Below, one piece after another: positions 11,639 through 44,517 of a stretch of DNA of 61,620 nucleotides. Location of the stretch: the NCBI GenBank assembly GCA_963578625.1, contig CAUZEO010000003.1, forward strand, positions 1-61,620. Direction: 5' to 3'. Origin of the DNA: Kiritimatiellia bacterium (lineage in GTDB: Bacteria; Verrucomicrobiota; Kiritimatiellia; SLOV01). The notes under the pieces were generated by a model that was given only the letters and a program-made list of their open reading frames with translations, searched no databases and was not told where the DNA came from. The position numbers and the translations under genes are program-made. The stretch's first letter is position 1; each line of letters starts with the position of its first letter.

Positions 11639-11694
11639 TGGAGAAGAAAAGGGGCAGCGTGTACCTTTGGCTCCGGACGATACTCTCTGCTCGG

Positions 11695-12214
11695 CATGCG
11701 CGTACGCCGACAGGCGGCCTTTCTTGACGAGCTGAATCCGCTTGTCCGGATCCACCGGAAAATCGAACACCGTTGCGAGTTTAGTTTCCAGGCCGGGAAA
11801 ACATGGGCTCAGCAGCGTGTCTTTTTTCGCGTAGGTCCGCTTCAGCCGGTAGGAATCCCCGTCGAGAAGAAACACTTCGACCGCAGAGGGATATGGGGTG
11901 ACCAGCCAGACCTCTGCACCCCGCTTCTCGCATACAGCTCCAGTTTTCTGCCGCGGTCGTGCAACAACGTGGAGAACGACAGGATCTCTATCAGCAGGAA
12001 AGGTGGTCCCTCAACGTGCGTTTTCTTGATCTGTTTTGGATCGCACACCACCAGAATATCCGGGGCGCTTCATTGCCTTGAAAAACGCGTACAGTTCAGC
12101 AAAGAAGTCCGCCAGGACTCGCCGGTACCGTTCCTGCGGACTTGGCGTCATTGCATATGCCCCCCCATCAATGACTTACCGGCGCGGGTCATCGTGCCAG
12201 ACCTGAATGGTCAT
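11695..12214 (-). pseudogene. Decayed Uma2-family (DUF820) nuclease-fold gene
   Basis: Pieces in different frames align to the intact copy at 18898..19521: VVCDPKQIKKTHVEGPPFLLIEILS.STLLHDRGRKLELYA, then a frame change, then VFLLDGDSYRLKRTYAKKDTL...FDFPVDP. There is an in-frame TAA at 12176..12178 (WHDDPRR*VIDGGAYAMTP) and an internal deletion before VVCDPKQ. The normal stop is lost. Confidence 0.65.
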
Positions 12215-12357: not shown

Positions 12358-15039
12358 ATGCTGGTTTTCATGAATCTGCCGCTCCCGCCAGGTATGTGGA
12401 ATGCAGTCGTCGCGACGGGACTCCTCCTCGCGGTCTTCTCCGCTCCCCCGGCGCATGCGTCTCCCGCACCGGCCTACCACATCTCGATCCACGACCTGCC
12501 GTCCCCCGGGACGGCGGACTATGCGGTATTCGCATCGTGGCTTGCCGCCCATCCGCGGGTCCTTCCCGTCAACTTCCGGCAGATGCCGATTCAGACCCTC
12601 TATCGCGGCAACCTGATGATGGCAATGGCGGGCGGCACCGCTCCCGACCTGGTCCGGGTGTATCACCACGAGGCGAAGGCCTGGATCCGGCACGGATTTC
12701 TGGAACCGCTGGATCCGTATATTTACCGGGACGTCGATGGAGACGACCGCTACACGGACGGAGTCGACGAAGTGATCTGGGAACCCCTGTTGCACATGCC
12801 CCCGCAGGTGCGCGCCTTCATGCAGGAGGACGGCCACTTCTACATCGTCCCCCGGTTTCAGTGGATCCAGTTCCTCCTTTACCGCAAAGATCTCTTTCGC
12901 GAAGCGGGGCTCGATCCGGAGAAGCGAATCGAGACGTTCGACGAGTTGCTGCACGCCGCACGCAAACTGACCGACCCCACTGCGAGCGTTCCCGGCGCGC
13001 GCGCGCCGCACGGCCGGAAGGGAATCGGAATCGCCCCGAACGGCTGGCACTTCCAGGGGTGGCTCTATGCGCACGGGGGCCGATCCATGTTCACCAAAAA
13101 GGTCTGCCTGCATTGCGCGACGCGGAACCGGTTCGAACAGGGCGAGTTCCAGTGGAAATGCCGGTCCTGCGAAAAAAGCCTTGGCGACATTCCGGGAGTT
13201 GAACGCGCCGCACTCAACAGTCCGGAGTCCAACCAGGCCCTTGATCTGTGGATGGACATGCTGTGGGCGCCCTTCACCACCTGCCCGGTCTGCGAGGAGC
13301 CGATCGAGTTGGGCAACGCCAACACGCGCATCGACCTGCCGGCAAAACGAGATTGTCCGCACTGTGACGAACCGGTCCACCTCGACCGGGACGACCAGGT
13401 GATCTACGGCTGTGCCCGCCCCCTCATCGACGAAGACCGTCACTGGCACAACCTCTGGCTCGACGGCGAGATCGCCATGATGACCGACCTGTGGACGTAC
13501 TGGATCGGAGCCGGTCATGTCGACCCGGCCGTGGTCGGGACCATGCCGATGCCCGGCACGGGGGGAAGCGCTTCGGGATATCATTTTTACGGAATCTACC
13601 GGGGCACGAAGGAACGGGAAGGCGGCCCGGACCGGTTGCAGGTCTGCGTCGACCTCATTCTTGATTGCTCTGCCCAATACTTCGTCCCGCAAGACCACCC
13701 GGATTATCTGAAATACGATAAGGAGCGGACCCGGGCTTTGGTGCGCAACGGCCTCTTCCACCTCTGCTCCTACGACGAACTGGTTGCAGCGGATCTCGAG
13801 GAATACGCCGCCGAGATCCCGGAGGGCTCCCGCCGCATGCAGCAACTGATTCGCGACCCCGATCGATATACCTGCGTTCCCATGAGCGAAGGGTACACCC
13901 GCGTGCAGACGGAGATCCTCCAGTACAACCTGCTCAGCCGGATACCCGCCGACCGCGATTTCGATGTGGCTGCGAATCTCGAGCGCGCCAACACGCTGGC
14001 CGACACGCAGGTCTTCATGAAGGAGGAGATCGTCGGGGAAATGGCGCAGCGGTTGCGATGGCCCTTCTTCGGCGGACTCTCCCTGTTCCTGCTCGCCCTG
14101 GGCACATTCGTTTACCGCACGATTCGCCGGGCACGAGTACGGCTGCGTTCCGTGCGGGAACGAAAGATCACTCAGGGCAAGCGATCCGCCGCCCTCGCCC
14201 TGCTCCTGCCGGCCATCCTGCTCGTCCTTGTCTGGGCCTATTACCCCCTGGTTCGCGGCTCGCTGATGGCGTTCCAGGAAGTCCGGCTGCTGGGCGGCTC
14301 GCGCTTTGTGGGCGTCGAGAATTTCATCCGGGTGGTCACCAACCCGATGTTTATGAGCATGGTATCGGCCACGGTTCAGTTCGTGGCGGCCACCCTCCTG
14401 CTGGGATTCTTCGCGCCGGTGATCCTGGCCGTCCTGCTGGCGGAGGCGCGCCGGTTTTCCACCCTCTTCCGCGTCATTTACTACGCGCCCCACCTGTTGG
14501 GGGGTGTGGTGGTGTTGTTTGTCTGGCGCATCTTCTACATGCCGACATCGGAGGGCCTGCTGAATCACCTGATCGGTTTCCTGGGCCTGGGCCCGGTCCG
14601 TTGGCTGGAAGATCCACTCATCAACAAATGGATGCTGGTCATTCCCGGGGTCTGGGCCACCACCGGGGCGGCCTGCCTGATCTACCTTGCCGCCCTGAAA
14701 ACCATCGATGACGAACTGTACGAAGCGGCCGACATGGACGGCGCCGGAGCGCTCCGCAAGGTCATGCACATCACCCTGCCGAGCTTAAAGCCCCTGTTAA
14801 TCATCAATTTCGTGGGCGCGTTCATCGCCGCCTTTCACGGTATGGGCAATGTCCTGGTCCTGACCGGCGGCGCCCACGAAACGAACGTGATCGGCCTGCA
14901 GATCTTCCTGGAGGCGTTCGGGTACCTGCGGTTCGGATCGTCCACCGCCCTGGCGTGGATCCTGGCCAGCGTGCTGATCGGGTTCACCGTGTTCCAGCTG
15001 AACTTTCTCCGCAAGGTCGAGTTCCGGAGAGCCGCCTAG
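12358..15039 (+). CDS. Fusion protein: extracytoplasmic sugar-type solute-binding domain (with Cys-knuckle inserts) + MalF/UgpA-type ABC permease
   Basis: 893 aa. N-terminal signal/anchor (VVATGLLLAVFSAPPAHA) and SBP-like blocks (GTAPDLVRVY, LLYRKDLFREAGLDPEKRIETFDELL, GWLYAHGG). A TM helix (FFGGLSLFLLALGTFVY) and a basic loop follow. The 6-TM permease part carries an EAA-type loop (DELYEAADMDGAGALRKVMHITLPSLKP). The start among ATGs at 12358/12370/12394 is uncertain. Confidence 0.85.
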   Translation: MLVFMNLPLPPGMWNAVVATGLLLAVFSAPPAHASPAPAYHISIHDLPSPGTADYAVFASWLAAHPRVLPVNFRQMPIQTLYRGNLMMAMAGGTAPDLVRVYHHEAKAWIRHGFLEPLDPYIYRDVDGDDRYTDGVDEVIWEPLLHMPPQVRAFMQEDGHFYIVPRFQWIQFLLYRKDLFREAGLDPEKRIETFDELLHAARKLTDPTASVPGARAPHGRKGIGIAPNGWHFQGWLYAHGGRSMFTKKVCLHCATRNRFEQGEFQWKCRSCEKSLGDIPGVERAALNSPESNQALDLWMDMLWAPFTTCPVCEEPIELGNANTRIDLPAKRDCPHCDEPVHLDRDDQVIYGCARPLIDEDRHWHNLWLDGEIAMMTDLWTYWIGAGHVDPAVVGTMPMPGTGGSASGYHFYGIYRGTKEREGGPDRLQVCVDLILDCSAQYFVPQDHPDYLKYDKERTRALVRNGLFHLCSYDELVAADLEEYAAEIPEGSRRMQQLIRDPDRYTCVPMSEGYTRVQTEILQYNLLSRIPADRDFDVAANLERANTLADTQVFMKEEIVGEMAQRLRWPFFGGLSLFLLALGTFVYRTIRRARVRLRSVRERKITQGKRSAALALLLPAILLVLVWAYYPLVRGSLMAFQEVRLLGGSRFVGVENFIRVVTNPMFMSMVSATVQFVAATLLLGFFAPVILAVLLAEARRFSTLFRVIYYAPHLLGGVVVLFVWRIFYMPTSEGLLNHLIGFLGLGPVRWLEDPLINKWMLVIPGVWATTGAACLIYLAALKTIDDELYEAADMDGAGALRKVMHITLPSLKPLLIINFVGAFIAAFHGMGNVLVLTGGAHETNVIGLQIFLEAFGYLRFGSSTALAWILASVLIGFTVFQLNFLRKVEFRRAA
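13105..13365 (+). other. Two CxxC...CxxC zinc-ribbon-like knuckles inserted in the solute-binding domain
   Basis: CLHCATRNRFEQGEFQWKCRSC lies at 13105..13170 and CPVCEEPIELGNANTRIDLPAKRDCPHC at 13282..13365. Both are in frame within 12358..15039. Confidence 0.6.
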
Positions 15040-15053
15040 CGCATCGTAGACTT

Positions 15054-17099
15054 ATGCCCATCCTCTCGACCATCGGCGCCCGGCGCCCGGAACAGATCGC
15101 GCTCCGCGCGGGCATCTACCTCCTCTTGCTCCTGGGCGCCCTGGGCATTGTCTATCCGCTCCTCGTGGTGCTTGGGCAGACCTTTAGCGACCGCTTCGAC
15201 CTGCGGGAGAACGCGGTCGTTCCACGCTATCTCCGGAGTCGAAACGACCTCGCTCTCAAGCGGGTCTTCTCCTCGACCGCGCGCCTCGACCTGCTCGCCA
15301 GCCGTCACCGTCGGAACCAGTGGACCAGCCCGGCCGCGATGCGCTCTGACGCGGACTTTTACGAGTCAAGACCCGGCTTCCTGGAAGCGCTTGGCTACCC
15401 GCAAGAAAGCTGGGAAGCGGTTCTGGCGGACTTTAGTGCGTTCAAGTCCACCGTCGATCCCGCGAACCTGGTGGCCCGGGCGTTCCGGATCGAGGACTAC
15501 TACCGTCCGTTCCTGCGGGATTCGTTCGCCCGGCAGGCGGATCAGTTCATCGCCGAGCGCGCGCAGGGCCGGCCGGACCCGGAGTGGTTTCAGCGGTACG
15601 CGCCGGATGCGGATCGCCGACAGGAGGCCCTGGCGGACCGGGAGGAGCTGGCCCGCATTCTCATGAACCACGAGCTGCGCGGCTTTTATCGAAGCGTCTA
15701 TCACGTGGAACTCATCCAGCCGGGAAACCTGACCGTCCCTTTCTGGCGGCCGGCCCCGCTCCCCAAGGAGCGGATGTGGATCCGGTTCAAGGGAACCCTT
15801 CCGCCCGGGCAGCTCATGATCGTTCCGTCAGACACCTATTGGCATGCGTTTCTCAAGACGAGGTACCGGGAGATCGGCGAGTTGAATACGGCGTGGGGAA
15901 CGGACCACGAAAGATTCTACAGCCTGCGGCTTGCGCTGACGGCGCCCGAAGACCCGCGGATACGCGACGATTGGGATCTGTTCATCGTCACCCGCTGGCC
16001 CCGCAGGCTCCTTGAGGTGCCCCCGGAATTCGCCCCTGCCTGGCGCGCGTTCGTCTCCGGCAGGCTGAACGCTCGCGCCCGGGAGATGGGGATGCCGCCT
16101 TCGTGGGCACTGGAGGAGGCTGCGCAACTTTCGGGGACGGACCTCACGGCCTGGGAGCAGCTCGAACTGCCCCGCCGGATGCCGGAGAACGACGATCTCA
16201 TGCGCTACTGGTGCGAATTCACCGCCTCCGGACAAATCCCGGCCGTGAAGCTGATCCTCGACGCTCCCGAGTTGAACTTCCGTCGCTTCCTACAGCGCAA
16301 GTACGGGGATGTCGCCGGGCTCAACCAATCCTGGGGCACTGCTTTCTCGCGATTCAAAGACGTGTCGCTGCCGCACGTACTCGCCGACTACCTTCCCGTG
16401 CGGAATGAACCGGGACGGTTGCGATGGAGCTTTGCCACCGAGTCGTATCGGCGTGTGATCGAATACCTGTTCGGCAAGGGGCGGGCGGTATGGAACACGT
16501 TCGTCCTGGTCGTGCTTTCGTTGATCTCGGCGCTGACCATCAATCCCATGGCGGCGTACTCCCTGTCGCGCTTTCCCATGAAGAGCTCGCACCGGGTGCT
16601 CATCTTCTTCCTGGTCACCATCGCGTTCCCGGTGGAGGTGGCCATGATTCCAAACTTCCTGCTGCTCCGGGACCTCGGCCTCCTCAACACCTTTGCGGCC
16701 CTGGTGCTGCCCGGGATGGCCAACGGATTTTCCATCTTCCTCCTGAAGGGATTTTTCGATTCGCTCCCCGCGGAGTTGTACGAAGCGGGAGAAATGGACG
16801 GCGCCTCGGAATTCCAGATCTTTCGGATCGTGGCCCTGCCCCTGCTGAAGCCGATCCTGGCCTATATCGGGCTCGGCGCCTTCGTGGCCGCCTACGGGGG
16901 ATTCATGTGGGCGATGATCATCTGTACCGACCCGGAGATGTGGACGCTGATGGTCTGGATATACGATTTCCAGATGTTCCGGCCGGGCAACAACTACATC
17001 CTGGCCGCCACCGTCCTGGTCAGCATCCCACCGCTCCTCGTCTTTCTCATTGCCAACCGGATTATCATGAAAGGCATCGTGATCCCCACCATGGCGTAA
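15054..17099 (+). CDS. MalG/UgpE-type ABC permease with very large TM1-TM2 extracytoplasmic insertion
   Basis: ATG at 15054, 681 aa. TM1 is IALRAGIYLLLLLGALGIVYPLLVV. About 430 non-hydrophobic residues follow. The last 203 aa form a normal permease core (VWNTFVLVVLSLISAL..., EAA loop AELYEAGEMDGASEFQIFRIVALPLLKP). Confidence 0.85.
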   Translation: MPILSTIGARRPEQIALRAGIYLLLLLGALGIVYPLLVVLGQTFSDRFDLRENAVVPRYLRSRNDLALKRVFSSTARLDLLASRHRRNQWTSPAAMRSDADFYESRPGFLEALGYPQESWEAVLADFSAFKSTVDPANLVARAFRIEDYYRPFLRDSFARQADQFIAERAQGRPDPEWFQRYAPDADRRQEALADREELARILMNHELRGFYRSVYHVELIQPGNLTVPFWRPAPLPKERMWIRFKGTLPPGQLMIVPSDTYWHAFLKTRYREIGELNTAWGTDHERFYSLRLALTAPEDPRIRDDWDLFIVTRWPRRLLEVPPEFAPAWRAFVSGRLNARAREMGMPPSWALEEAAQLSGTDLTAWEQLELPRRMPENDDLMRYWCEFTASGQIPAVKLILDAPELNFRRFLQRKYGDVAGLNQSWGTAFSRFKDVSLPHVLADYLPVRNEPGRLRWSFATESYRRVIEYLFGKGRAVWNTFVLVVLSLISALTINPMAAYSLSRFPMKSSHRVLIFFLVTIAFPVEVAMIPNFLLLRDLGLLNTFAALVLPGMANGFSIFLLKGFFDSLPAELYEAGEMDGASEFQIFRIVALPLLKPILAYIGLGAFVAAYGGFMWAMIICTDPEMWTLMVWIYDFQMFRPGNNYILAATVLVSIPPLLVFLIANRIIMKGIVIPTMA

Positions 17100-17104
17100 A
17101 AGAA

Positions 17105-17140
17105 CAGTTTTCCTGTAAAAGAATTTTTGTCGTATAATGG
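17105..17140 (+). promoter_or_regulatory. Candidate sigma70-like promoter (TATAAT at 17133..17138)
   Basis: AT-rich 67-nt spacer between the permease stop and ATG at 17167. It has a perfect TATAAT, but only a weak -35 candidate (TTCCTG) 17 nt upstream. Confidence 0.2.
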
Positions 17141-17166
17141 GAATGTTGAATTGACCACGTACCGAT

Positions 17167-18021
17167 ATGCACGCCAATCATCAATCAGGCCGGGGCTTTA
17201 CGCTCATCGAACTGCTGGTGGTCATCGCGATTATCGCCGTTCTGGCAGCGCTTCTGTTCCCTGCAGTTCGGGAGGCGGTGGAGCGCGGTCGCCAAGCGCT
17301 CTGCATGAGCAACCAACGGCAGATCCTCATCGCACTCCGATCCTACAGCAACGACCACGACACGGGTATCCCATACGACGCGCTGCGGAAAGACGGCGGC
17401 CCTGGCGGCAACGGCAGCGTCCTGTTCAAGTTCTCGTGGTGGACCTCGTTGGGCATGCTCTACGCCGGCGGAGCCATCCAGCAGGCACAGGCCGACGCAG
17501 AGGCCTCCGGCCCGGGCACCGGAGGGTACACCGGGGGCAATCACGACGTCTTTTATTGTCCCAGCGCCCGGTGGGCCGGCGGGTTGGACCAGTGGAGTCC
17601 GACGATCAGCCGGCGCATGTACGGCACCGACTACTGGACCTACTGGCACGACCCGTCCAGCAACGTTCCAGGATGGGCCCTGCACAGCAGTTACGGGTAC
17701 CGTTACACCCACGATTCCCATTGGCCCAAGTTCGGAACCTCCAAGTCCAGTGCCTGGGGCGGCTACACCATGGATACGATCGATTCCATCGGGGATACCG
17801 CGATCATCAGCGACAGCTGGATCTGGTGGAACCCCTATTCCGGCACCTTTGCCGCGCACCAGGCCGTCGAAGGAGAACTCGAGACGGTCTTCCAGGTGGG
17901 ATTCACCGACGGCCACGTCATTCGCGCCAACATCGCGGACCAGCTCCACCCGTGGGTCAAGAACGGACTCGACTGGGCCCAATTCTGGTACCGGGACGAA
18001 GCCTGGCAGCTGTTCGAGTAA
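17167..18021 (+). CDS. Prepilin-type N-terminal cleavage/methylation protein (pseudopilin-like)
   Basis: [24 protein letters not shown] is a prepilin signal directly after MHANHQSGR. The C-terminus reads ...VGFTDGHV...[14 protein letters not shown]. Confidence 0.85.
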
Positions 18022-18031
18022 CCCCGACAGC

Positions 18032-18901
18032 TCACGAAGGCACGACAACCTGCTTCCTCTCAAACGCTTCCTTGGACAACTTCACCCGGACAAATTCGGC
18101 CGCATCATCCCCGTCGTAGGATGGCTTCATCGCGGCAAGCTGGTCATCCAGCTCCACGCTCCACCCCCTCTCGTAACCGGACGTACCCAGGATATAGCCC
18201 TGAATCGGCCCCGGCAGGGCGCTGAAGTCGGGATGATACCAGAGCGTGATCACCGTGCGCCGCTGATCGTTGTCGTTCGCATGTGCCGCGTGAAGAAGCC
18301 GCGCGTCCCCCATGACCAGGTCGCCCGCCCTCACCGGCACCTCGACCTCGTCGTCGCGGTCCTGGTATTCCGGAAGCGTGAGATCCTCTCCGGTCAAAAA
18401 TCCGCCGGTATGGGCGGGGGACAGCTCGTCATGAAGCGGATTGTGCTCGATGTGCGATCGGGGAAGGACCCGGAGGCAGCCGTTTTCCCGGTTGGTGTCG
18501 ACCAGGTAGTACATCAGGAAGATCTGGGGAGGAACCTTCTCGAAACTGAACGGATGCGACCATGCCGCCCAGTCGAAATGCCAGAACAACCGGGGACTGT
18601 GCGGCGGCTTGCTGATCACGAACCCGGAGGAAAACCGGATATCGGAAAATCCCATCTTCTCCAGAACACCGAGAGCCGGCGGATAGGTGACGAGCCGGGC
18701 GAAGATCTCGTCGTCCTTTACTGGAATCATGCTTCCGGTCGTCACGTTCGCCCGCGCATGTTCCTCGCTCATCTCCGCCGTCTTGCGATCGGTGAACCGG
18801 CGCAACTCATCCAGAAATCCCGCGTCGAGCACATTTCCAACAACGCAGAATCCGTCCTCGATCAACTCCTCCCGCTTTGCCTTGAATTCCGTTGCCGTCA
18901 T
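18032..18901 (-). CDS. PhyH-family Fe(II)/2-oxoglutarate dioxygenase
   Basis: 289 aa with WHFD (HxD), GCLRVLPRSH and a distal His in ARLLHAAHAN. Its ATG overlaps the upstream Uma2 stop (ATGA at 18898..18901). Confidence 0.85.
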   Translation of the reverse strand: MTATEFKAKREELIEDGFCVVGNVLDAGFLDELRRFTDRKTAEMSEEHARANVTTGSMIPVKDDEIFARLVTYPPALGVLEKMGFSDIRFSSGFVISKPPHSPRLFWHFDWAAWSHPFSFEKVPPQIFLMYYLVDTNRENGCLRVLPRSHIEHNPLHDELSPAHTGGFLTGEDLTLPEYQDRDDEVEVPVRAGDLVMGDARLLHAAHANDNDQRRTVITLWYHPDFSALPGPIQGYILGTSGYERGWSVELDDQLAAMKPSYDGDDAAEFVRVKLSKEAFERKQVVVPS

Positions 18902-19521
18902 GTCGAAGAGGCGTACGCAGGAGGCCGGCCTTCCCTGACCAGCGGGATCTGCTCACCCGGATCCACCGGGAAATTGAATACATCCGCCAAGGCGATTTCC
19001 CGATCGGGGAATGTCGGACTCCGGAGAGCATCCTCCTTGGCATACGTGCGATTGAGCCGATACGAATCGCCGTCGAGCAGGAACACCTCGATTGCGGAGG
19101 GAGAGGGCGTGACAAGCCAAACCTCTCCAACCCCGTAACGCGCATACAACTCCAGCTTTCGACCTCGATCGTGCAGCGCCGTAGATGGCAAGAGGACTTC
19201 AACAATCAGTGAGGGCGCTCCCTCAATATGGGTACTCCTGATTTGCTTCGGATCGCACACCACCAGAAGATCCGGCTGCACGACGTCCTTATCAGACAAT
19301 TTCAGATCGATGGGTGAAATAAGAGGTATGCAGGTTTTCTCTTCGAAATGCTCGAAGGTCCGTCGATACAGGTTGCCGACGACCTGCTGATGCCGGGGTG
19401 TCGGCGCGGGAGTCATTGCGAACGCCTCACCGCCCACGATCTCCCAGCGCTGATCGTCGTTCCAACGACAATAGTCGGTCCACGTATATCGCGAACTATC
19501 GGGTTTCCGTAAGCCTACCAT
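18898..19521 (-). CDS. Uma2-family (DUF820) putative restriction-endonuclease-fold protein
   Basis: 207 aa with family-typical blocks: WEIVGGEAFAMTPAPTPRHQ, VVQPDLLVVCDPKQ, APSLIVEVLLPST...DRGRKLELYARYGVGEVWLV. Confidence 0.8.
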   Translation of the reverse strand: MVGLRKPDSSRYTWTDYCRWNDDQRWEIVGGEAFAMTPAPTPRHQQVVGNLYRRTFEHFEEKTCIPLISPIDLKLSDKDVVQPDLLVVCDPKQIRSTHIEGAPSLIVEVLLPSTALHDRGRKLELYARYGVGEVWLVTPSPSAIEVFLLDGDSYRLNRTYAKEDALRSPTFPDREIALADVFNFPVDPGEQIPLVREGRPPAYASST

Positions 19522-19581
19522 GTCTGCATCCTTGCAGTTACTTTAGCATCCTGCAACCATTTGAGGAAGCAAGAAAGGATA

Positions 19582-20010
19582 ATGATCATGCCGTCCAGAT
19601 CTCGCCCCAGTCTCATTTTTGACAAGGATGACATCGCCCGTATTCGTAACAACATCGAAACGTACGACTGGGCGCGGACGCTTTTTGAGGAGGTCAAGGG
19701 CGCCGTTGATGGAGGGGCGGATTTCGGAACCCAGCCAACCGCATGGAGCGGCTACACCCTGCGGCAACTCGGTACCATTGGGGACACCGCTATCATCGGT
19801 GACAGCTGGATCTGGTGGAACCCGTTTTTTGGAACCTACGCCGCCCATCAGACCATGGAGGGCGAGCCCCGCGCGGTATTCCAGGTCGGGTTCACCGATG
19901 GCCATGTCACGCGATCCAACAACGGCCACGAGGTCCATCGCCTAGTGAAAAACGGAACCGAGTACGCCCAATTCTGGTACCGGGACGAAGCCTGGCGACT
20001 CTTCGAGTAG
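19582..20010 (+). CDS. Chimeric ORF: heparinase-like N-terminal segment fused to prepilin-protein C-terminal segment (possible pseudogene)
   Basis: Residues PSLIFDKDDIARIRNNIETYDWARTLFEEVKGAVDGGADFGTQ match the N-terminus of 21593..24082. Residues [25 protein letters not shown]...VGFTDGHV...[14 protein letters not shown] match the C-terminus of 17167..18021. The prepilin signal is absent. Confidence 0.5.
   Translation: MIMPSRSRPSLIFDKDDIARIRNNIETYDWARTLFEEVKGAVDGGADFGTQPTAWSGYTLRQLGTIGDTAIIGDSWIWWNPFFGTYAAHQTMEGEPRAVFQVGFTDGHVTRSNNGHEVHRLVKNGTEYAQFWYRDEAWRLFE
19663..19735. repeat. 73-nt exact direct repeat, copy 1
   Basis: tacgactgggcgcggacgctttttgaggaggtcaagggcgccgttgatggaggggcggatttcggaacccagc is identical to 21668..21740. 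The flanks are clearly diverged. Confidence 0.95.
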
Positions 20011-20078
20011 GGATTGAAAAACGTTTTCATCATCCTTCAGGGAATTGATCCGCATGCGTCATATCGAAGAGGGCAATC

Positions 20079-21353
20079 ATGAAAAACATACGGACTAACA
20101 AAAAGCCTTGCCTGGTGGCGTTGGTCTTCCTCATGGGGGGGAGCATTCCACTGCTTGCATTGGAAGGAACCGAAGCCGTCACGGCCGCACGGGCAGTCTA
20201 CGGCGGGAATGAAAATTTCGAGGGCGGAAAAATCATCGGCCATTACGACGGCCGAGACCTGAACGACGAACTCTTTACCCTGCGAGGAATGGCGGTCGAC
20301 TACCAACAGAAAAATACCGGGCCGTTTGTCGTCCGCATCGAGGGCGGAAAGGGAAAGGGATCCGTCATGGCGGACGAACGGATAACCTTCGGGAACTATC
20401 CGAGCATCCTGCTGAACTTCACAGACAGGGAACGCGAGACCTCTATCCTCACGTGGAAAAGGACCCCGATACTTGAGCCCAACCGGATATACGAGGTGCG
20501 CGCAATGGTGCGGGCTCGGAACATCAAGCTCACCCAGAATTTTTTTTACCTGGAGTTCCGAGACGGAAGCAAGAAGAAGAATTTCGGAACCCGGTTGATC
20601 ACTTGGGAGAATGCCGGCGCATTCCATATGGCGCGCATCTATATTCACTCCTTCCCGGATGCCGGGAAGAGCGAAGCGATTAAGTTCCGCGCGAAAGGTC
20701 GACCGGTGAGTGACGGGTTGGTCCTCGGCCCATCGCAAATCTGGATCAGTTCGATCACCATCATTGATCACGGAAAAACCCTGGAACTGACCCCCGAAAC
20801 CATGATCGACGACTTCGACGGGCCAGGGATCAGACGGTGGTGGTACAATGTCAACCCGATGGATTGGTCGGCAAAATACAGGGACTTCGAGAAACTGAGA
20901 GCTGCTATCGTGGAAGACGGCGAGCGCAAGTGCATCCGCCTGCAAGGCACCTGGGGACAGTTGATGCGTCCCTTCAGGGAATCGATTACCAATGTCGATG
21001 TCACCTTTGACTTCAAGGAGGTCGGACGCAAACCCAGCCAAAAAACCGGCCGACTTCTCGTCCTGTGCAATAAAGATTGGCAACAACTGGGACTGGGCTC
21101 GTTCTGGGCATCCACGTCACACTTCTGCCATTTTTACAGGGGCGAATTTGGCCCAACAAGCATCATGCTAGACGCGGAGTGGCATACGGGAACATTCTCA
21201 GTGCGTCCCGGCGGAACGACCATCTACCTCGACGGAGTTGAGGTAGCCAGGAAGAAAGAGTTCACCTCATTCCTGAGGGTAGAACTCGGCGAAACGCAGT
21301 GGCATGGAGGCGAATACTATTTCGATAACTTCAAGATTACCAAGGCTGAATAG
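20079..21353 (+). CDS. Secreted two-domain carbohydrate-binding-like protein (CBM-like + LamG-like), family member 1
   Basis: Signal peptide KKPCLVALVFLMGGSIPLLALEG. The C-terminal block IYLDGVEVARKKEFTSFLRVELGETQWHGGEYYFDNFKI parallels the C-termini of 31023..32366 and 43290..44504. G+C is visibly lower than in the neighbours. Confidence 0.75.
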   Translation: MKNIRTNKKPCLVALVFLMGGSIPLLALEGTEAVTAARAVYGGNENFEGGKIIGHYDGRDLNDELFTLRGMAVDYQQKNTGPFVVRIEGGKGKGSVMADERITFGNYPSILLNFTDRERETSILTWKRTPILEPNRIYEVRAMVRARNIKLTQNFFYLEFRDGSKKKNFGTRLITWENAGAFHMARIYIHSFPDAGKSEAIKFRAKGRPVSDGLVLGPSQIWISSITIIDHGKTLELTPETMIDDFDGPGIRRWWYNVNPMDWSAKYRDFEKLRAAIVEDGERKCIRLQGTWGQLMRPFRESITNVDVTFDFKEVGRKPSQKTGRLLVLCNKDWQQLGLGSFWASTSHFCHFYRGEFGPTSIMLDAEWHTGTFSVRPGGTTIYLDGVEVARKKEFTSFLRVELGETQWHGGEYYFDNFKITKAE

Positions 21354-21592
21354 AACGCTCTTTCGCGGGAAGCAGGGATGAGCCGGAAGTGATAGCACTT
21401 GGTGAAGGGGCTTCTCCGCCAAAACCTTACTTGCCCCGCAACAGCCCCTCCCGGAAGGGAAGATACGGAATGGATTCCATCCCCTGCATGGATGAAAATC
21501 GTCGCTTGCAATGCAATCAGCCAGGCTCCATAATCTGTTTACGTGCTGACAGACCCCCCAATTGCTCCAAGCGTTTGGCAAAGAACTGCGTC

Positions 21593-24082
21593 ATGACCAC
21601 GAATCAACACCCCAACCTGATCTTCGGGGCCGAGGATGTCGCCCGCATCAAGAAGAACATCGAGACTTACGACTGGGCGCGGACGCTTTTTGAGGAGGTC
21701 AAGGGCGCCGTTGATGGAGGGGCGGATTTCGGAACCCAGCACCCCGACTCTCCCCGGTACACCATGACCTATCCGGACTTCGACATCACGGTGGAGGACC
21801 CGGATCTCATGTGGACCGCCCAGCATGTACATATGCGGCGGTTCATGGAGTTTGCGATGGTCGCGGTGCTCACCGGCGAGGAGAAGTACAGCCACCGGAT
21901 GGTCCGGCTGTTGCCCGACATTGCCGAAGTACTGGCGCGCGGAAGCGATCCCAACAAGCAGGCACAGGTGGTCAACTGGACGACCGGTCAGGATGCGGCT
22001 GACGCGCTCATCGCGTACGATCTCCTGTACAACGATCCCTCCTGGACGGAGGCAGCCCGCGAAAAAGTGGAGGGACACTTCCAGTCCATCGGCAAGCAAA
22101 TCGAGGCAGAGCCGTCCTCATACCATCTCTGCAACACCAGCTTCTACTACCAGGTGTACCGGGTGCTCGCGGGATGCTTTTTCGACAATCGGGAGTGGAT
22201 CGACACCGGGCTGGATAACCCGGGCGGATTCAAGAGCCTCCTGACGACACCGTCGCGGCGGGGCGGAACATTCGACATGCGCTGGTACCTCTTCGGAGAC
22301 AGCGACTCCCCGCATCGCCGCCTCCAGCGGTTTCGCGGCGGAACAGTGGACGACGGGATCTGGAACGAGACCGGCAGCTACGGTCTGGATGCGGTGCTGA
22401 GCCAGATGTGCTTTATCGCCGAGGCCATGCTTCACTACGACGGCACCAACCTCTACGAATACGAGGCGCCGGGCGGCGGATGCCTGCGGAATGTTTTCCG
22501 CCGCGGGATGGAGCGGTCATTCAGCGACGGCCAGCCCATCCGGTTCGGCGCCAACGGCGAGGTCATGCAACGCTACGTGCCGGATGTGCCCGGCTCCGAC
22601 GGCACGGCGCTTCGGGTTCCCCTGCCCGGCGACAAGTGGGACCTCGCCTATCTGCGCTGCGGCGATCCCGAGTTCGCATGGGCGGCCTTGCAGGTTCCGG
22701 GGCGGCGCGGCTGCGCCAACAAATGGGGGTACTGCGCGTTGTGGCACGGCCTCGACGCCTCCGAAATGGAGGTACGGACTCCCGATATGCGAAGCATTAC
22801 CTTTCCGGGTTTCGGTGTCGCGGTGGTTCGCAGCACGGAAGGCCCCGAATTCTGGAACTCCGACACCCCCACCGTGGCCGTCCGATGGGGCGAGGCCATC
22901 TACCGCGCGCACCCCGATCAGTTCGGTTTTCAACTCCACGCCTTCGGCCGGGGCATCGAACCGGACATCAACTATCCCTGGGACTACGGGGTCCCCCAGG
23001 GCGGACGCAACCCGACGCCGTTCGGGTACTCCACCTACGCCCACAACTGCCTGGTAGTGGACCGGCGCAACTACAGCCAGGAGGCGGCAAATCTCGTGGT
23101 CGATGACCACGGGGAGCACGCCAAGGTGATCGGCCTGGCAAGCAGCAACGTGACGCAGAGCGATGCGGTGCAGAGCGTCGACCTCGCCCGGTGGCTGGTT
23201 CTGTGCAAGGAGTACCTGCTCGACGTCAGCTACATCGGCGATCTGCATCTCGAGCACACGTTCGACCTGTCCGTCCCCACCTTCGGCACCGACATCGAAA
23301 TCGACGGGGCACAGTGGGAAGACTACGACGTGGGCGCGGACATCGGCTACGGGAAGATCGACACCATCCACGATCTCGATGAAGACCTGGAAGCGGCGGT
23401 GATGCGGACATCACACCCCCCGCCGGCAATCGACAGCGATGAGAACGTGTGGCTCAAGGACGGCCGGCGCTGCAAGCTACGGGAACCGTTCACCGTGCGC
23501 TGCAAACACCCGGACGGCATCCACCTCGCCCTCCACTATGGAGGCTGGAGCGAATGCGAGATGATGACCGCGAAAGCGCCGCTGCGATGGCTTGCGCGGG
23601 AAGGCGTCGACAGCATTCCCGGCCGGTTCGGCCTGGTCATCAATCGAAAAGTGATTTCGCCGGACATCAGCGGCACCGGCACGATGGACTGCAGCATTTT
23701 CACCCACAGCGAGGACCACTGCCACTACTTCGTGGTTCACGAACCGTACCGGGAGCAGAACGGCACGAAGATCCGGGGCGTCCGCCGGCTGCCCCTGAAG
23801 GAGCGGACGGTGGAGATGTGGGACCCCAACGGGTATCCCATGGCAAAAGGCAACCACCGGTGGACCACGCCGCGCGTCGTGGAGGTCCAGGGCGAAGACT
23901 TCATCGACTACTTCATCTACATCGATCACTTCATCGCCCTGCGCGGCGGCGAACCCGGCCGCGTCATCCTCACCACCCCCGCCTTCCGCGTCGAGTTCAG
24001 CGGGCCGTATGTGTGGTTGCGATTGGTCGATGGCAAAATCTCAGCCACCCAAGGCAAGATCACCGAAGTGGATGTGATCTGA
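21593..24082 (+). CDS. Heparinase II/III-like polysaccharide lyase family protein
   Basis: ATG at 21593, codon 69 of the track ORF, 829 aa. N-terminal HPNLIFGAEDVARIKKNIETYDW, then HPDQFGFQLHAFGRGIEPD and STYAHNCLVVDRRN, resemble the heparinase II/III His/Asn blocks. No signal peptide is possible in the open frame. Confidence 0.7.
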   Translation: MTTNQHPNLIFGAEDVARIKKNIETYDWARTLFEEVKGAVDGGADFGTQHPDSPRYTMTYPDFDITVEDPDLMWTAQHVHMRRFMEFAMVAVLTGEEKYSHRMVRLLPDIAEVLARGSDPNKQAQVVNWTTGQDAADALIAYDLLYNDPSWTEAAREKVEGHFQSIGKQIEAEPSSYHLCNTSFYYQVYRVLAGCFFDNREWIDTGLDNPGGFKSLLTTPSRRGGTFDMRWYLFGDSDSPHRRLQRFRGGTVDDGIWNETGSYGLDAVLSQMCFIAEAMLHYDGTNLYEYEAPGGGCLRNVFRRGMERSFSDGQPIRFGANGEVMQRYVPDVPGSDGTALRVPLPGDKWDLAYLRCGDPEFAWAALQVPGRRGCANKWGYCALWHGLDASEMEVRTPDMRSITFPGFGVAVVRSTEGPEFWNSDTPTVAVRWGEAIYRAHPDQFGFQLHAFGRGIEPDINYPWDYGVPQGGRNPTPFGYSTYAHNCLVVDRRNYSQEAANLVVDDHGEHAKVIGLASSNVTQSDAVQSVDLARWLVLCKEYLLDVSYIGDLHLEHTFDLSVPTFGTDIEIDGAQWEDYDVGADIGYGKIDTIHDLDEDLEAAVMRTSHPPPAIDSDENVWLKDGRRCKLREPFTVRCKHPDGIHLALHYGGWSECEMMTAKAPLRWLAREGVDSIPGRFGLVINRKVISPDISGTGTMDCSIFTHSEDHCHYFVVHEPYREQNGTKIRGVRRLPLKERTVEMWDPNGYPMAKGNHRWTTPRVVEVQGEDFIDYFIYIDHFIALRGGEPGRVILTTPAFRVEFSGPYVWLRLVDGKISATQGKITEVDVI
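21668..21740. repeat. 73-nt exact direct repeat, copy 2
   Basis: Identical to 19663..19735. It lies in the 5' part of the lyase-like gene. Confidence 0.95.
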
Positions 24083-24110
24083 GAGAATCATGCATCTATC
24101 CTGGACTCAT

Positions 24111-24170
24111 CCATAAATCCCATACTTCCTATGACTCCCATGGGACCTATGGGAAGTATGGGATTTATGG
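24111..24170. terminator. Bidirectional hairpin between convergent genes (19-bp perfect stem, 22-nt loop)
   Basis: ccataaatcccatacttcc (24111..24129) is the exact reverse complement of ggaagtatgggatttatgg (24152..24170). The loop contains the palindrome tcccatggga. It sits between the stops at 24082 (+) and 24179 (-). Confidence 0.6.
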
Positions 24171-24178
24171 TACCGTTG

Positions 24179-25138
24179 TCAGGACTCGCGCTCTTCCTTC
24201 AGCGTCCGCAAAACAGCCATGTACATCCGGTTTCGCTCTTCGATGCCCTGTTCGACGTCCCCCTCCGCGTAATCGTAGAGCCCCTTCCCCGCCTTCGCGC
24301 CGTAGTGGCCGTTCCGGACCAGCTCCTGCACCGACGGCGGGAACTCCACGTCATCGGCCAGATCCGGAGCCAGTACCTTCATGACTTCGTCGTTCGTATC
24401 CAACCCCGCGTAATCGAGGACGGCAAGCGGCCCCAGCGCCGCAAGCCGGATTCCGACGCTCTCTCGGATCGCGAGATCGATCTGCTCCGTCGTCGCGATT
24501 CCCTGTTCCCGCATCGACAACAGCTCCCGATACATGGCCATCTGCACGCGATTGACGAGAAAGCCGGGAATCTCCTTCTTCAGCGGAACCGCGAGCTTGC
24601 CGGCTCCCTCCAGGAGTTGAACCGTCCGGTCCACCGTTTCCTGCGCCGTTTTTTCCCCCGGCACGACTTCCACCAGCGGAATAATGTGCGGCGGATTAAA
24701 CCAATGTGTATTCAACGCCCGTTCCGGATGCTTCATGCGAATCGACATCTGCGACATTGGGTAACTGGACGTGTTGCTCGCGACAACGCATTCCGTCGAA
24801 ATCGACGCCTCGATGCGTTCAAACACCGTCTGCTTCAGCACCAGATTCTCGCGAATCACCTCGGTCAAAAAGTCCGCATCCTGTAACGCGTCCTCTTCCG
24901 AATCGCAAACGGTGATCCGCTCCAGCGTGCCGGCGACATCCCCCGCGTCGAACAGACCCGCCGCGACCATCTTCTCCAGGTTGGATCGGACTCTCGGCAA
25001 GGTAGTCGCCCTGGCCTCCGCCACATCGTCGTATCCGCAAACCCGGCAGCCCGCCGCGGCAAAGATCTGGGCAATCCCGTGCCCCATGGTGCCGAGACCA
25101 AGGACCGCAACGTTTCGAATGGAATCGGGATCCGCCAT
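24179..25138 (-). CDS. 3-hydroxyacyl-CoA dehydrogenase family NAD-binding protein
   Basis: VAVLGLGTMGHGIAQIFAAAG is a Rossmann motif. SNTSS, HWFNPPHIIPLVEVV, GFLVNRV and the C-terminal GAKAGKGLYDY are family-typical. Confidence 0.8.
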   Translation of the reverse strand: MADPDSIRNVAVLGLGTMGHGIAQIFAAAGCRVCGYDDVAEARATTLPRVRSNLEKMVAAGLFDAGDVAGTLERITVCDSEEDALQDADFLTEVIRENLVLKQTVFERIEASISTECVVASNTSSYPMSQMSIRMKHPERALNTHWFNPPHIIPLVEVVPGEKTAQETVDRTVQLLEGAGKLAVPLKKEIPGFLVNRVQMAMYRELLSMREQGIATTEQIDLAIRESVGIRLAALGPLAVLDYAGLDTNDEVMKVLAPDLADDVEFPPSVQELVRNGHYGAKAGKGLYDYAEGDVEQGIEERNRMYMAVLRTLKEERES

Positions 25139-25145
25139 GAATCGA

Positions 25146-25592
25146 CTACGCCGGGGTTTTCCGGCTGGCCAACAGGAGGTGTTCGCAGGCCATCACGACC
25201 TCATCCTTCTGATTGAACACCTCGACCTGCTCCACCACCGTTCCGAGCTCCGGTTTCTTGAAATCCCGCTTGTCGCTGATGGTCACCTTGCACCGGATGG
25301 TGTCCCCGATGTAGACCGGTTTGATGAATCGCAACCGGTCATAGCCGTACGTGAATGCCTCGGGATTGATCTCCCCCGCCGTCATGCCGATCGCGACGCT
25401 GAAGATCAGCGTTCCGTGCGCGATCCGGGCGCCGAACGGCTGCGTTTTGCACCACTCGGCATCCATGTGATGCGGATAGAAGTCCCCGGCCTGCCCCGCG
25501 TGAATCACGATGTCCGTTTCCGTGATCGTGCGGCCGATCGTTTCGCGTTCGTGACCGAGTTCGTAGTCTTCGAAAAGTTGGGATTTGAACAT
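25146..25592 (-). CDS. MaoC-like (R-specific enoyl-CoA hydratase fold) dehydratase
   Basis: ATG at 25592 with AAGGAAA upstream. The hot-dog motif is [25 protein letters not shown]. Confidence 0.8.
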
Positions 25593-25625
25593 GGCTATTG
25601 TTTCCTTTTCTGAATGCCGGATCAC

Positions 25626-37305: not shown

Positions 37306-37873
37306 GTCGTGAGAACCCGCTACCATCCGCCCAATGGGTTGACCCGTTCCCGTCCCTCGCGGTGTCGAGGAGCCGGGGGGGCATCGTAGAAGCCCCACCG
37401 GACCGAGGGACATGTGGTTCCCGCCCGAACATCCATCCGGCGGGGGAGCACTGCGCGCCGCCCTCGGCGGACCAGGTGTCGGCCAGGACGTAAATCGTGC
37501 TCCAAAATCTCTTGTGCCCCTCTGGAGCCGCGAACCCCGGATTGCGGAGCCCGATCGAGAAGCGTACACTGGGTCAACTGATGAAATTCCCCCATCCCGA
37601 CCGGAAAGCCTTTACTTTCATCAGGCGACTCGCCGTCGTCTCCACCATCTCCATCCCGGCGTCACCGGCCCGTGATGAGCACATGAAGGCAACGGCCGAG
37701 CGCGTGCAGGAGATCTCGGAGCGCTTCACTGCCCTGAAACAACGTCTCTACCTCGGCCAGGCCGGAGGGCTGGTGGAGAACGCGCTGGCCGACGTGCGCG
37801 AGGCGACCGGGTTGACCGTACCCGAACCACTGTTTTCCCAAGCGCCGTGGCTAAATTCGAGGAGGTGAGGTCT

Positions 37874-42565: not shown

Positions 42566-42626
42566 CGCGTCCCTTGCTCACCTCTTCGCCTCCAGGCTCT
42601 CAATCGTTCCCTGCCGCGCCACGATC

Positions 42627-43220
42627 TCACCGTTCACCCAGCGTAGCCAGGCTGAAATCGACGTTGAAAAACGGCGTTTCCATCTTCACCCGGCCCGGTT
42701 CCCCTCCGCGCAGTCGGGCCAGATGATCAACACATACGAAGTAGTCCGAAAAGCCCTCGCTCCTGACTTCAATCACCCGTGGCATCGCCCATCCGTGCAG
42801 TTCTTTGCCGATCTCGTAGCCATTCGGGTCCCTCAGCGTGCACTGCCGCTCCTCGAGACGCAATCGCCGTACGCTCCGGATTCTGTATCCGTCTTCCGCC
42901 CTGTAGGGTTCGTGCGCGACGACGAAGTGGCAGTTCTCTTCGCTGTGCGGGTAGGTGCCGCCGAGCCATCGGCCGGTGCCGGGCATGTTCGATTCGTAGA
43001 CCTTGCGGTTGATGACGATCCCGTAGCGTCCCTCGATGCTTTGGACGCCCTCCCGCGCCCGCCAGCTGCGCGGCGCCTTCCCGGTGAGGATCTCGCTCTC
43101 GTCTTCGGCGCCGTAATGGAGGGCAAGGTGAATGCCGCCCTCATGCTTGCAGAGAACCGTATCTGACGCGCCCGGTGCTTGCGTACAGACGCGTATCGTG
43201 TCTGCTGAAGGTACCGGCAC
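42627..43220 (-). pseudogene. Stand-alone C-terminal fragment of a heparinase II/III-like gene
   Basis: 197-aa ORF colinear with roughly the last 190 aa of 21593..24082: CKHEGGIHLALHYG, GRYGIVINRKV, HFVVAHEPYR, RSVRRLRLEER, DYFVCVDHLARLRGGEPGRV. It lacks all catalytic N-terminal and central parts and the last ~25 aa. Confidence 0.55.
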
Positions 43221-43289
43221 CTCTGCTGGCGGATCAACGATTCAGATAGAGTTTCTTATTGCGATTCAGATTTCGAAGAGGAAGGGTGT

Positions 43290-44504: not shown

Positions 44505-44517
44505 CCCAAAGCGCACC

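What the first reader, a model, noticed from the sequence alone, without database searches (positions are those of the whole stretch)
19582..20010. Chimeric ORF made from the 5' end of the lyase gene and the 3' end of a prepilin-protein gene
The first ~50 residues match the N-terminus of the lyase-like protein at 21593..24082, including a 24-residue identical run. The junction lies after ...DFGTQ, about nt 19736. The remaining ~90 residues are colinear with the C-terminus of 17167..18021. The product has neither a prepilin signal nor lyase catalytic parts. It is a clear recombination scar that nevertheless keeps an open frame and a plausible RBS (AGGAAGCAAGAAAGGA).
Basis: seen in the sequence. 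Interest (0 to 1): 0.65.

Follow-up and report, generated by a model that had tools for sequence, protein, structure and literature searches.

The report
Young lyase–pilin gene-fusion remnant
A small open reading frame in an uncultured marine bacterium really is a fusion of the first 49 codons of a lyase-like gene to the last 91 codons of a pilin-like gene; it is a recent, probably functionless scar of DNA rearrangement, and the unbroken pilin gene still exists in a sister strain.

Summary
It is not an assembly error. A single-copy-depth unitig spans the joint, and more than 10 independent contigs show the same gene order.

The parentage needs correcting.
- The 3' donor is not 17167..18021, which is an old paralogue (dS about 1). 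The donor is a lost paralogue, "pilin2". Pilin2 is still intact in a co-occurring strain, followed by the same spacer and downstream gene, and is 98.5% identical over the shared coding part.
- The 5' part is a mosaic. Codons 1-25 are anciently diverged from the lyase. Nucleotides 19663-19735 are 100% identical to 21668-21740.
- The crossover lies in a 3-nt microhomology, AGC (19733-19735).

The product has no prepilin leader and none of the lyase beyond two predicted helices. The fusion is too young for its open frame to indicate function, and the polymorphism data have no power. The "lyase" label rests only on remote homology to PL17 alginate lyases.

Verdict: a real but ordinary illegitimate-recombination scar in a rearrangement-prone locus.

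The parts
19588..20010 (+). Chimeric ORF, 140 aa. Other possible starts: ATG 19582 (142 aa) and TTG 19561 (149 aa).
   Evidence: Called as a 140-aa gene in independent assemblies. Nine protein variants, all with the same joint.
19575..19579 (+). AAGGA, a Shine-Dalgarno-like site 8 nt upstream of ATG 19588. It lies in the 66-nt spacer shared with the divergently oriented Uma2 gene.
   Evidence: Sequence read. Function is inferred. No sigma-70-like promoter was found in this spacer.
19588..19662 (+). 'A-type' lyase-like codons 1-25 (MPSRSRPSLIFDKDDIARIRNNIET), anciently diverged from the neighbouring lyase-like gene.
   Evidence: 44 of 75 nt identical to 21593-21667. pS 0.80, pN 0.31.
19663..19735 (+). 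R1: a 73-nt tract 100% identical to 21668-21740 of the lyase-like gene (codons 26-49 plus 1 nt).
   Evidence: Zero of 16.7 synonymous sites differ. The R1 unitig has about 2x depth (99 versus 46-56) in run X1.
19733..19735 (+). Crossover point: AGC microhomology shared by the lyase-like gene and intact pilin2. It sits within an imperfect 7-of-8 match, AACCnAGC.
   Evidence: Four-way alignment. SNP table shows L021 differs at 19732 and matches from 19733.
19736..20010 (+). Pilin2-derived 3' part (residues 50-140), equivalent to the last third of a DUF1559-type pilin-like protein.
   Evidence: Near-identical to the C-terminus of P0030 (two residue differences beyond the joint). 4 nt differences in 272 against L021. 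75% nt identity to 17752-18020.
20011..21353 (+). Spacer plus the 424-aa gene of unknown function (20079..21353). In the sister strain it follows intact pilin2, so it is the original downstream neighbour of the 3' parent.
   Evidence: L021 continues colinearly to window 20104. The L021-type spacer haplotype is seen in run X5. A paralogue lies at 43290..44504.
21593..24082 (+). Full-length lyase-like gene (829 aa), a remote relative of PL17 alginate lyases. It carries the second copy of R1 at 21668-21740.
17167..18021 (+). Pilin-like gene 'pilin1' (N_methyl + DUF1559). It is an old paralogue of the chimera's 3' part, not its direct parent.
18032..19521 (-). PhyH dioxygenase-like gene (18032..18901) and Uma2 endonuclease-like gene (18898..19521), immediately upstream of the chimera on the other strand.
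   Evidence: The same order is seen in L001, L007, L008, L009 and L015.

Best explanation
The ORF is a young, in-frame fusion remnant made by one illegitimate (microhomology) joint.

The joint links codon 49 of a lyase-like gene's 5' end to about codon 196 of a second pilin-like gene. That 5' end kept its own start codon and ribosome-binding site, next to the Uma2 gene. The second pilin-like gene, pilin2, stood directly upstream of the 424-aa gene and the present lyase-like gene. The event removed the prepilin leader, the transmembrane helix and the first two thirds of pilin2. It also removed everything of the lyase-like donor beyond its first 49 codons.

The simplest route (inferred) is a deletion between two neighbouring pilin...lyase modules: pilin1-PhyH-Uma2-lyaseA and pilin2-unk424-lyaseB. 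The 73-nt tract identical to lyaseB then reflects gene conversion between the two lyase 5' ends, before or after the deletion.

If made, the product is a 140-aa cytoplasmic protein that can work neither as a pilin nor as a lyase. It is most likely a neutral passenger. It may still be transcribed and translated, because it inherited an intact 5' end.

Shown: chimerism, the position of the joint, that the joint is real, the intact pilin2 allele, and the mosaic 5' part. Inferred: the order of events, the existence of a full-length lyaseA, and the lack of function.
For: - Both halves are significantly similar to their gene families.
- The joint sits inside a single-copy-depth unitig and in more than 10 independent contigs. 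A 212-nt contig in run X15 links the A-type 5' end to the joint.
- Intact pilin2 (P0030 on L021) matches the chimera from nt 19733 through the stop codon, the spacer and the start of the next gene: 96.3% over 380 nt, with 4 differences in 272 coding nt.
- Run X5 holds both alleles side by side. The chimera-joint unitig is at 8.4x. Intact pilin2 running into 19728 is at 11.9x, with the L021-type spacer haplotype at 15.5x versus 11.1x.
- The 5' part is a mosaic: pS 0.80 in codons 1-25, then 73 identical nt.
- A relative with an 87%-identical lyase-like protein (L017) has pilin followed after 104 nt by the lyase-like gene. A pilin-lyase pair is therefore a natural module.
- The window holds other remnants of the same families: a lyase C-terminal fragment at 42627..43220, an N-terminus-plus-C-terminus mini-ORF at 51492..51851, and a degraded Uma2 copy near 11700-12100. 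Related strains carry other rearrangements at the lyase 5' end (L018/L019).
- The product has no Pfam or NCBIfam match and no prepilin motif.
- An HMMER scan of 1.84 billion representative proteins found the chimeric architecture only in this one cluster.
Against: - No full-length lyase gene with the A-type N-terminus was found. The only contig suggesting one (run X16) is at low depth and can be explained by collapse of the R1 repeat.
- What lies upstream of pilin2 in the sister strain is unknown. Deletion within one genome therefore cannot be told apart from replacement by imported DNA.
- All 9 protein variants keep the frame open, and pN/pS is 0.58, based on only 3 SNPs. Some constraint cannot be excluded.
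- Expression could not be tested, because no RNA run holds the region.
Confidence: 0.72

Rival explanations
1. Homology-facilitated illegitimate recombination. A DNA segment from a related strain, carrying pilin1-PhyH-Uma2 and the 5' end of its lyase gene, replaced the 5' two thirds of pilin2. The left end was anchored by homology, for example in the ABC-permease genes. The right end joined at the AGC microhomology.
For: - In run X5, pilin1 (12.6x), PhyH and Uma2 (11.2x) each show a single haplotype at about the depth of the chimera strain. The intact-pilin2 haplotype is at 12-15x. The sister strain may therefore lack pilin1-PhyH-Uma2.
- A 3-nt joint is typical of such events (my own knowledge of de Vries and Wackernagel 2002, not checked here).
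- Codons 1-25 are very diverged from the resident lyase gene.
Against: - Only 43% of run X5's contigs were read, so the absence of a second haplotype is weak evidence.
- This route still needs a later conversion to explain the 73-nt identity with the resident gene.
- A degraded Uma2 copy and PhyH-lyase linkage in relatives suggest these genes are native to the locus.
Confidence: 0.18
2. Tandem-duplication joint. A 2,005-nt unit was duplicated head to tail: the pilin2 3' part, the 424-aa gene, and the lyase upstream region with codons 1-49. This created the chimera directly from the present lyase gene. A later recombination with an upstream lyase paralogue replaced codons 1-25 and removed the first copy.
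For: - It explains directly why R1 and the 12 nt before the joint are identical to the resident lyase haplotype.
- Contig L005 and a contig in run X8 read: unk424 3' end, lyase 5' end, joint, pilin2 3' part, unk424 5' end. That is exactly such a joint.
Against: - L005 and L016 carry the chimera-strain SNPs downstream and differ only by the swap at 19625-19662. L016 contains Ns, and the X8 contig is at 3.8x. All are what repeat collapse through R1 would produce.
- In run X1 every unitig except R1 and the 31-nt R2 (19966-19996) is at single-copy depth, so no duplication exists in the chimera strain today.
- This route needs two further steps.
Confidence: 0.07
3. A newly born functional gene. The chimera is expressed and selected. 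It might act as a small soluble protein, or as a translated leader that couples the downstream 424-aa and lyase-like genes to the promoter of the lost lyase paralogue.
For: - It has an intact start codon and an AAGGA site.
- The frame is open in all 9 variants from about 23 contigs across several ocean surveys.
- The next gene starts only 68 nt downstream.
Against: - The fusion is very young: 1.5% divergence from intact pilin2. An open frame is expected by chance.
- Polymorphism is 1 synonymous to 2 non-synonymous in DNA. At least six residue positions vary among the cluster's protein variants, four of them in variants without DNA here.
- The AlphaFold model is of low confidence (pLDDT 38.8).
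- The sister strain keeps the unfused gene.
Confidence: 0.1
4. Assembly chimera: the joint at about 19736 does not exist in any real molecule.
For: The locus holds two short repeats (R1 of 73 nt, R2 of 31 nt). These break k=31 graphs and do produce wrong contigs elsewhere (L005, L016, X16, X8).
Against: - The joint lies 30 nt inside a unitig of single-copy depth, not at a repeat edge.
- Assemblies from different samples and studies agree with it, including two MEGAHIT k141 contigs, whose word length exceeds both repeats.
- Even the alternative path through R1 would still fuse a lyase 5' end to the pilin 3' part.
Confidence: 0.02

Closest known systems
Fusion or chimeric pseudogenes left by deletion between neighbouring paralogous genes, through microhomology-mediated illegitimate recombination (a general class; my own knowledge)
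   Same: There are two gene fragments from different families, a 3-nt microhomology at the joint, loss of the intervening DNA, and a remnant that keeps the upstream gene's start signals.
   Different: Here the unfused allele of one parent still co-occurs in the same water samples, so the event is caught while still polymorphic. The 5' half is itself a mosaic with a 73-nt converted tract.
Homology-facilitated illegitimate recombination in naturally transformable bacteria (my own knowledge; not checked in the paper library)
   Same: The right-hand joint is illegitimate and uses a few shared bases, next to a long block that the sister strain may lack.
   Different: No left-hand homologous anchor was identified. 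Competence of this organism is unknown.
Silent pilin cassettes (pilS) of Neisseria, which donate 3' pilin sequence to the expressed gene by gene conversion (my own knowledge)
   Same: It is a 5'-truncated pilin copy, lacking the leader, that lies 1.7 kb from a full-length paralogue and shares short identical blocks with it (31 nt).
   Different: It is fused to a start codon of another gene. It is only 75% identical to the full-length gene. No mosaic pilin1 allele was seen in 5 contigs. The full-length gene is a DUF1559-type pseudopilin-like protein, not a surface antigen known to vary.
PL17 alginate/oligoalginate lyases (PDB 9irq, 8bdd, 7bjt, 4nei) as relatives of the 5' parent family
   Same: The family profile aligns from about its 4th position to the N-terminus of PL17 chains over about 210 residues (E 7e-18 to 8e-9). 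Two of 12 family members reach Pfam Alginate_lyase and Hepar_II_III_C.
   Different: The window protein itself passes no Pfam or NCBIfam threshold. Its substrate and activity are unknown. The chimera keeps only 49 residues of it.

Membership tests
Type IV pilin-like / pseudopilin proteins (N_methyl PF07963 + DUF1559 PF07596) | Prepilin leader with the cleavage/methylation motif (G|FTLIE...) and the hydrophobic N-terminal helix | tested here: not met
   The chimera has no Pfam or NCBIfam hit, and its N-terminus is lyase-like. The motif is present in 17167..18021 and in P0010.
Type IV pilin-like / pseudopilin proteins (N_methyl PF07963 + DUF1559 PF07596) | C-terminal globular part homologous to the family | tested here: met
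   Residues 46-140 match pilin1 at 66% (E 5e-44). They differ from intact pilin2 (P0030) at two residues beyond the joint. This subfamily's C-terminus is rare: only about 6 full-length relatives were found.
PL17-like polysaccharide lyase (Alginate_lyase PF05426 + Hepar_II_III_C PF07940) | Complete alpha-helical N-terminal domain and beta-sheet C-terminal domain that carry the active site | tested here: not met
   The chimera holds only residues 1-49 of 829, equal to two predicted helices. For the parent gene, membership is remote only: profile hit to PL17 chains at E 7e-18, with no direct Pfam hit.
Chimeric gene made by illegitimate recombination | Two adjoining segments, each significantly similar to a different gene family, with a sharp switch point | tested here: met
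Chimeric gene made by illegitimate recombination | Short microhomology at the switch point | tested here: met
   AGC at 19733-19735 is shared by the lyase-like gene and intact pilin2, within a 7-of-8 match AACCnAGC.
Chimeric gene made by illegitimate recombination | Unfused parental state observed | tested here: inconclusive
   The 3' parent is seen intact (L021, run X5). A full-length 5' parent with the A-type N-terminus was not found.
Chimeric gene made by illegitimate recombination | Joint present in real molecules and not only in one assembly | tested here: met
   Unitig 19706-19995 at single-copy depth, more than 10 independent contigs, and contig 19534-19745 in run X15. No long reads were available.
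Silent pilin cassette system (pilS-like) | Mosaic alleles of the expressed pilin that carry tracts copied from the cassette | tested here: not met
   Across the public contigs that cover it (mean 5 per codon), pilin1 differs from the window at only 4 sites, 2 synonymous and 2 non-synonymous, with no chimera-type tract. The sample is small.

The most novel reading that the evidence does not exclude
The fusion is a gene caught at birth. It would be transcribed from the promoter of the lost lyase paralogue and translated from its start site. Its product would be either a soluble, leaderless pilin-domain protein with a new role, or a translated leader that now drives the downstream 424-aa and lyase-like genes. 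The fused and unfused alleles would be kept in different strains of one marine population by selection.
Probability: 0.08. Interest if true: 0.55.

Novelty: new member of a known kind. Interest (0 to 1): 0.28.

Why it matters
On its own it is an ordinary rearrangement scar. Its modest value is as a well-documented natural case. The joint can be placed to within 3 nt. One parental allele is still present in the same samples. The 5' half also shows a sharply bounded 73-nt conversion tract.

The case also shows how quickly carbohydrate-utilisation loci of uncultured marine bacteria are reshuffled. The 62-kb window holds at least four other gene remnants. Short intragenic repeats of 31-73 nt in such loci also mislead metagenome assemblers.

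For annotation: this ORF should be flagged as a fusion remnant, not as a pilin or a lyase.

Tried and rejected
- **Genome scan.** A scan of GTDB representative genomes with the lyase-like protein gave only a 23%-identity hit.
- **JGI metagenome scans.** Two scans, one with chimera peptides and one with an intact-pilin2 DNA word, found nothing.
- **RNA evidence.** No RNA run holds the region, so expression is untested.
- **Run search with L021.** Co-occurrence was shown instead from loose ends and haplotypes in run X5.
- **Structure prediction.** AlphaFold2 gave pLDDT 32.8 for the lyase-like protein (single sequence) and 38.8 for the chimera (composite 14-row alignment). Both are too poor to use, so no fold search was run. 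One composite alignment (A7) was misaligned and discarded.
- **Polymorphism test.** The first count (5 synonymous, 4 non-synonymous) looked like purifying selection. It was inflated by two suspect contigs. Without them the count is 1 to 2, which has no power (Fisher p 0.56).
- **Contigs L005 and L016.** I first read them as a tandem-duplication intermediate or a second context. I rejected them as evidence after the SNP table showed they are chimera-strain sequence with only the R1-adjacent swap, and that L016 contains Ns.
- **Low-depth Logan contigs.** The X16 and X8 contigs were set aside for the same reason.
- **Conversion from the chimera into the lyase gene.** I considered that the lyase's FGTQ motif came from the chimera. 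I dropped the idea because intact pilin2 reads FGATK, so FGTQ is the lyase's own sequence.
- **Other scans.** Rfam gave only sub-threshold miRNA-like hits on a palindrome at 24111-24170. The promoter and terminator scan found no more than chance.

Full report
**1. The observation**

The + strand holds an ORF ending at 20010, with possible starts at TTG 19561, ATG 19582 and ATG 19588.

blastn of 19400-20100 against the window gives two hits besides itself. One is 19625-19735 to 21633-21740 (90%, E 5e-38). The other is 19741-20009 to 17752-18020 (75%, E 9e-48).

At protein level, the C-terminal 95 residues match the end of the pilin-like protein 17167..18021 (66%, E 5e-44). The first 58 or so residues match the start of the 829-aa protein 21593..24082 (67%, E 6e-23), including 24 identical residues.

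Public gene calls use ATG 19588 (140 aa). That start has AAGGA 8 nt upstream, whereas 19582 has only 2 nt of spacing.

**2. The families involved**

- 17167..18021 carries the prepilin N-terminal methylation motif and DUF1559.
- 18032..18901 (-) is PhyH-like and 18898..19521 (-) is Uma2-like.
- The '829-aa lyase' has no Pfam, NCBIfam or single-sequence PDB match. A profile of its 11 homologues hits PL17 alginate lyases from the very N-terminus (9irq E 7e-18, 4nei E 8e-9). Two distant members reach Pfam Alginate_lyase and Hepar_II_III_C. 'Lyase-like' is acceptable as remote homology only.
- The chimera itself matches no family model.

**3. Is the joint real?**

The Uma2 protein is found on contigs from independent assemblies. 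The chimera belongs to a cluster of 9 protein variants on about 23 contigs from several marine surveys.

L001, L002, L007, L008, L009 and L015 are colinear with the window across pilin1, PhyH, Uma2, the chimera, the 424-aa gene and the lyase-like gene. Identity is 98.4-100%. L001 and L015 are MEGAHIT k141 contigs, and k=141 is longer than any repeat here.

In the k=31 contigs of runs X1 and X2, the graph breaks at two short repeats:
- R1, 19663-19735, equal to 21668-21740, at about 2x depth;
- R2, 31 nt, 19966-19996, equal to 17977-18007.

The joint itself lies 30 nt inside a 290-nt unitig (19706-19995) of single-copy depth. A 212-nt contig in run X15 links the chimera-specific upstream sequence to the joint.

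Even the other path through R1 would fuse a lyase 5' end to the pilin 3' part. I put assembly artefact at about 2%.

**4. The 3' parent**

Against 17167..18021, the pilin part has pS 0.55 (dS about 1) and omega 0.2. Homology stops at the stop codon. These are old paralogues.

A search with pilin1 found P0030, whose C-terminus is almost identical to the chimera. Its contig L021 matches window 19728-20104 at 96.3%. The match runs through the stop codon, the 68-nt spacer and the start of the 424-aa gene. Upstream it continues as a pilin gene (72% to pilin1). Within the shared coding part there are only 4 differences in 272 nt.

Run X5 holds both states. One is a unitig with the chimera joint (19700-19762, 8.4x). 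The other is a contig in which intact pilin2 runs into 19728 (11.9x), with the L021-type spacer haplotype at 15.5x beside the window type at 11.1x.

The fusion is therefore recent, and the unfused allele co-occurs with it in nature.

**5. The joint**

- Lyase-like gene: ...GGAACCCAGC|ACCCC
- Intact pilin2: ...GCAACCAAGC|CAACCGC
- Chimera: ...GGAACCCAGC|CAACCGC

The crossover is in AGC (19733-19735), within an imperfect 7-of-8 match. The 9-nt TTCGGAACC shared with pilin1 is incidental, because pilin1 is not the parent.

**6. The 5' part is a mosaic**

Codons 1-25 (19588-19662) share 44 of 75 nt with the lyase-like gene (pS 0.80, pN 0.31). The next 73 nt are identical, with none of 16.7 synonymous sites changed.

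A relative's lyase gene (L017) is only 76% identical across this tract. The identity is therefore homogenisation within the genome, not constraint on the sequence.

The 5' donor was a different lyase-like paralogue or allele ('A-type'). It was combined with a gene-conversion-like exchange with the neighbouring gene 2,005 nt downstream. No full-length A-type lyase was found.

**7. Context and route**

L017, whose lyase-like protein is 87% identical, has the order pilin, 104-nt spacer, lyase-like gene. A pilin-lyase pair is therefore a natural module. A more distant homologue (L022) sits with PhyH and ABC permeases.

The window order is pilin1, then the chimera, then the lyase-like gene. This fits two adjacent modules merged by a deletion from lyaseA codon 49 to pilin2 codon ~196. 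I rank that first.

Replacement by imported DNA, anchored upstream and joined illegitimately at AGC, is a serious rival. In run X5, pilin1, PhyH and Uma2 show only one haplotype.

The tandem-duplication route would make the chimera directly from the resident lyase gene. It rests on L005 and an X8 contig. Both are chimera-strain sequence with only the R1-adjacent swap, and are best explained by repeat collapse.

**8. Function**

The product lacks the prepilin leader and helix, so it cannot enter a pilus or pseudopilus. It has only two predicted helices of the lyase-like protein.

An HMMER scan of 1.84 billion representative proteins found this architecture only in its own cluster.

Clean polymorphism counts are 1 synonymous and 2 non-synonymous, against 58 and 37 in the neighbouring genes (Fisher p 0.56). 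Among the protein variants, at least six residue positions vary.

With only 1.5% divergence from the intact allele, an open frame is expected by chance. The AlphaFold model is of low confidence. No RNA data exist.

I conclude that it is most likely a neutral remnant, possibly still expressed because its 5' end is intact.

**9. A rearrangement-prone locus**

- The window holds a lyase C-terminal fragment (42627..43220, -) and a mini-ORF made of a lyase N-terminus plus C-terminus (51492..51851).
- It holds a degraded Uma2 copy about 7.2 kb upstream of the intact one.
- It holds two paralogous transporter clusters.
- Related strains truncate the lyase gene at window 21866 and join it to other DNA (L018/L019).
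- In run X2 a divergent haplotype begins right after R1.

**10. Verdict**

The feature is real, correctly located, and correctly read as a recombination scar. It is a new member of a known kind and of low to moderate interest.

Noticed in passing
window 51492..51851 (+): A 119-aa ORF made of a lyase-like N-terminus (matching residues 4-62 of the 829-aa protein, 42%) joined in frame to its C-terminus (residues 788-829, 53%). It looks like an internal-deletion remnant of another paralogue.
   Followed up: partly
window 42627..43220 (-): A 197-aa ORF equal to the C-terminal part (residues 634-803, 56%) of a lyase-like paralogue. It lies in reverse orientation between a permease gene and a paralogue of the 424-aa gene. 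It is another gene fragment.
   Followed up: partly
window about 11690..12100 (- strand): A degraded, frame-broken copy of the Uma2 gene (70-76% nt). It forms a direct repeat 7.2 kb upstream of the intact Uma2 at 18898..19521. Gene callers instead call a 225-aa + strand ORF there with no family.
   Followed up: partly
window 12358..24082 and 37847..48042: Two paralogous clusters. Each has a fused solute-binding-protein/permease gene (893 and 935 aa), a second permease with a GH42-like insert, and a 404-424-aa protein of unknown family, followed by a large enzyme-like gene.
   Followed up: partly
L018 and L019 (JGI), against window 21866..26273 and 60159..61620: In a 96.7%-identical strain the lyase-like gene lacks its first 91 or so codons (the match starts at window 21866). 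It is preceded by PhyH-like genes and by sequence that lies about 36 kb away in the window. This is a large structural difference between strains.
   Followed up: partly
window 21702..22060, run X2: Two haplotypes of the lyase 5' region occur at about equal depth (17.5x versus 15.4x), 5-10% apart. The divergence begins at about 21731, just inside the 3' end of the R1 copy, while flanking DNA shows only one haplotype.
   Followed up: no
L005, L016; Logan contigs in runs X16 and X8: Short or low-depth public contigs that join the wrong flanks across the 73-nt repeat R1. These are probably assembler artefacts. L016 also has unrelated sequence upstream of window-equivalent 21629, and a run of Ns.
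   Followed up: yes
window 17166..17276: The prepilin leader and N-terminal-helix coding stretch reaches 750-3,200x depth in four seawater runs where the rest of the gene is at 5-13x. It is shared at nucleotide level by very many genes in these communities.
   Followed up: no
window 24111..24170: A 30+30-nt palindrome (87% complementary, no loop spacer) between the convergent lyase-like and 3-hydroxyacyl-CoA dehydrogenase genes. It is probably a two-way terminator. The weak Rfam miRNA hits there are spurious.
   Followed up: no
L022 (2.6-Mb ENA contig), L018: PhyH-family dioxygenase genes sit next to lyase-like homologues in distant relatives too. In L022 ABC permease genes follow as well. This suggests a conserved functional association.
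   Followed up: no
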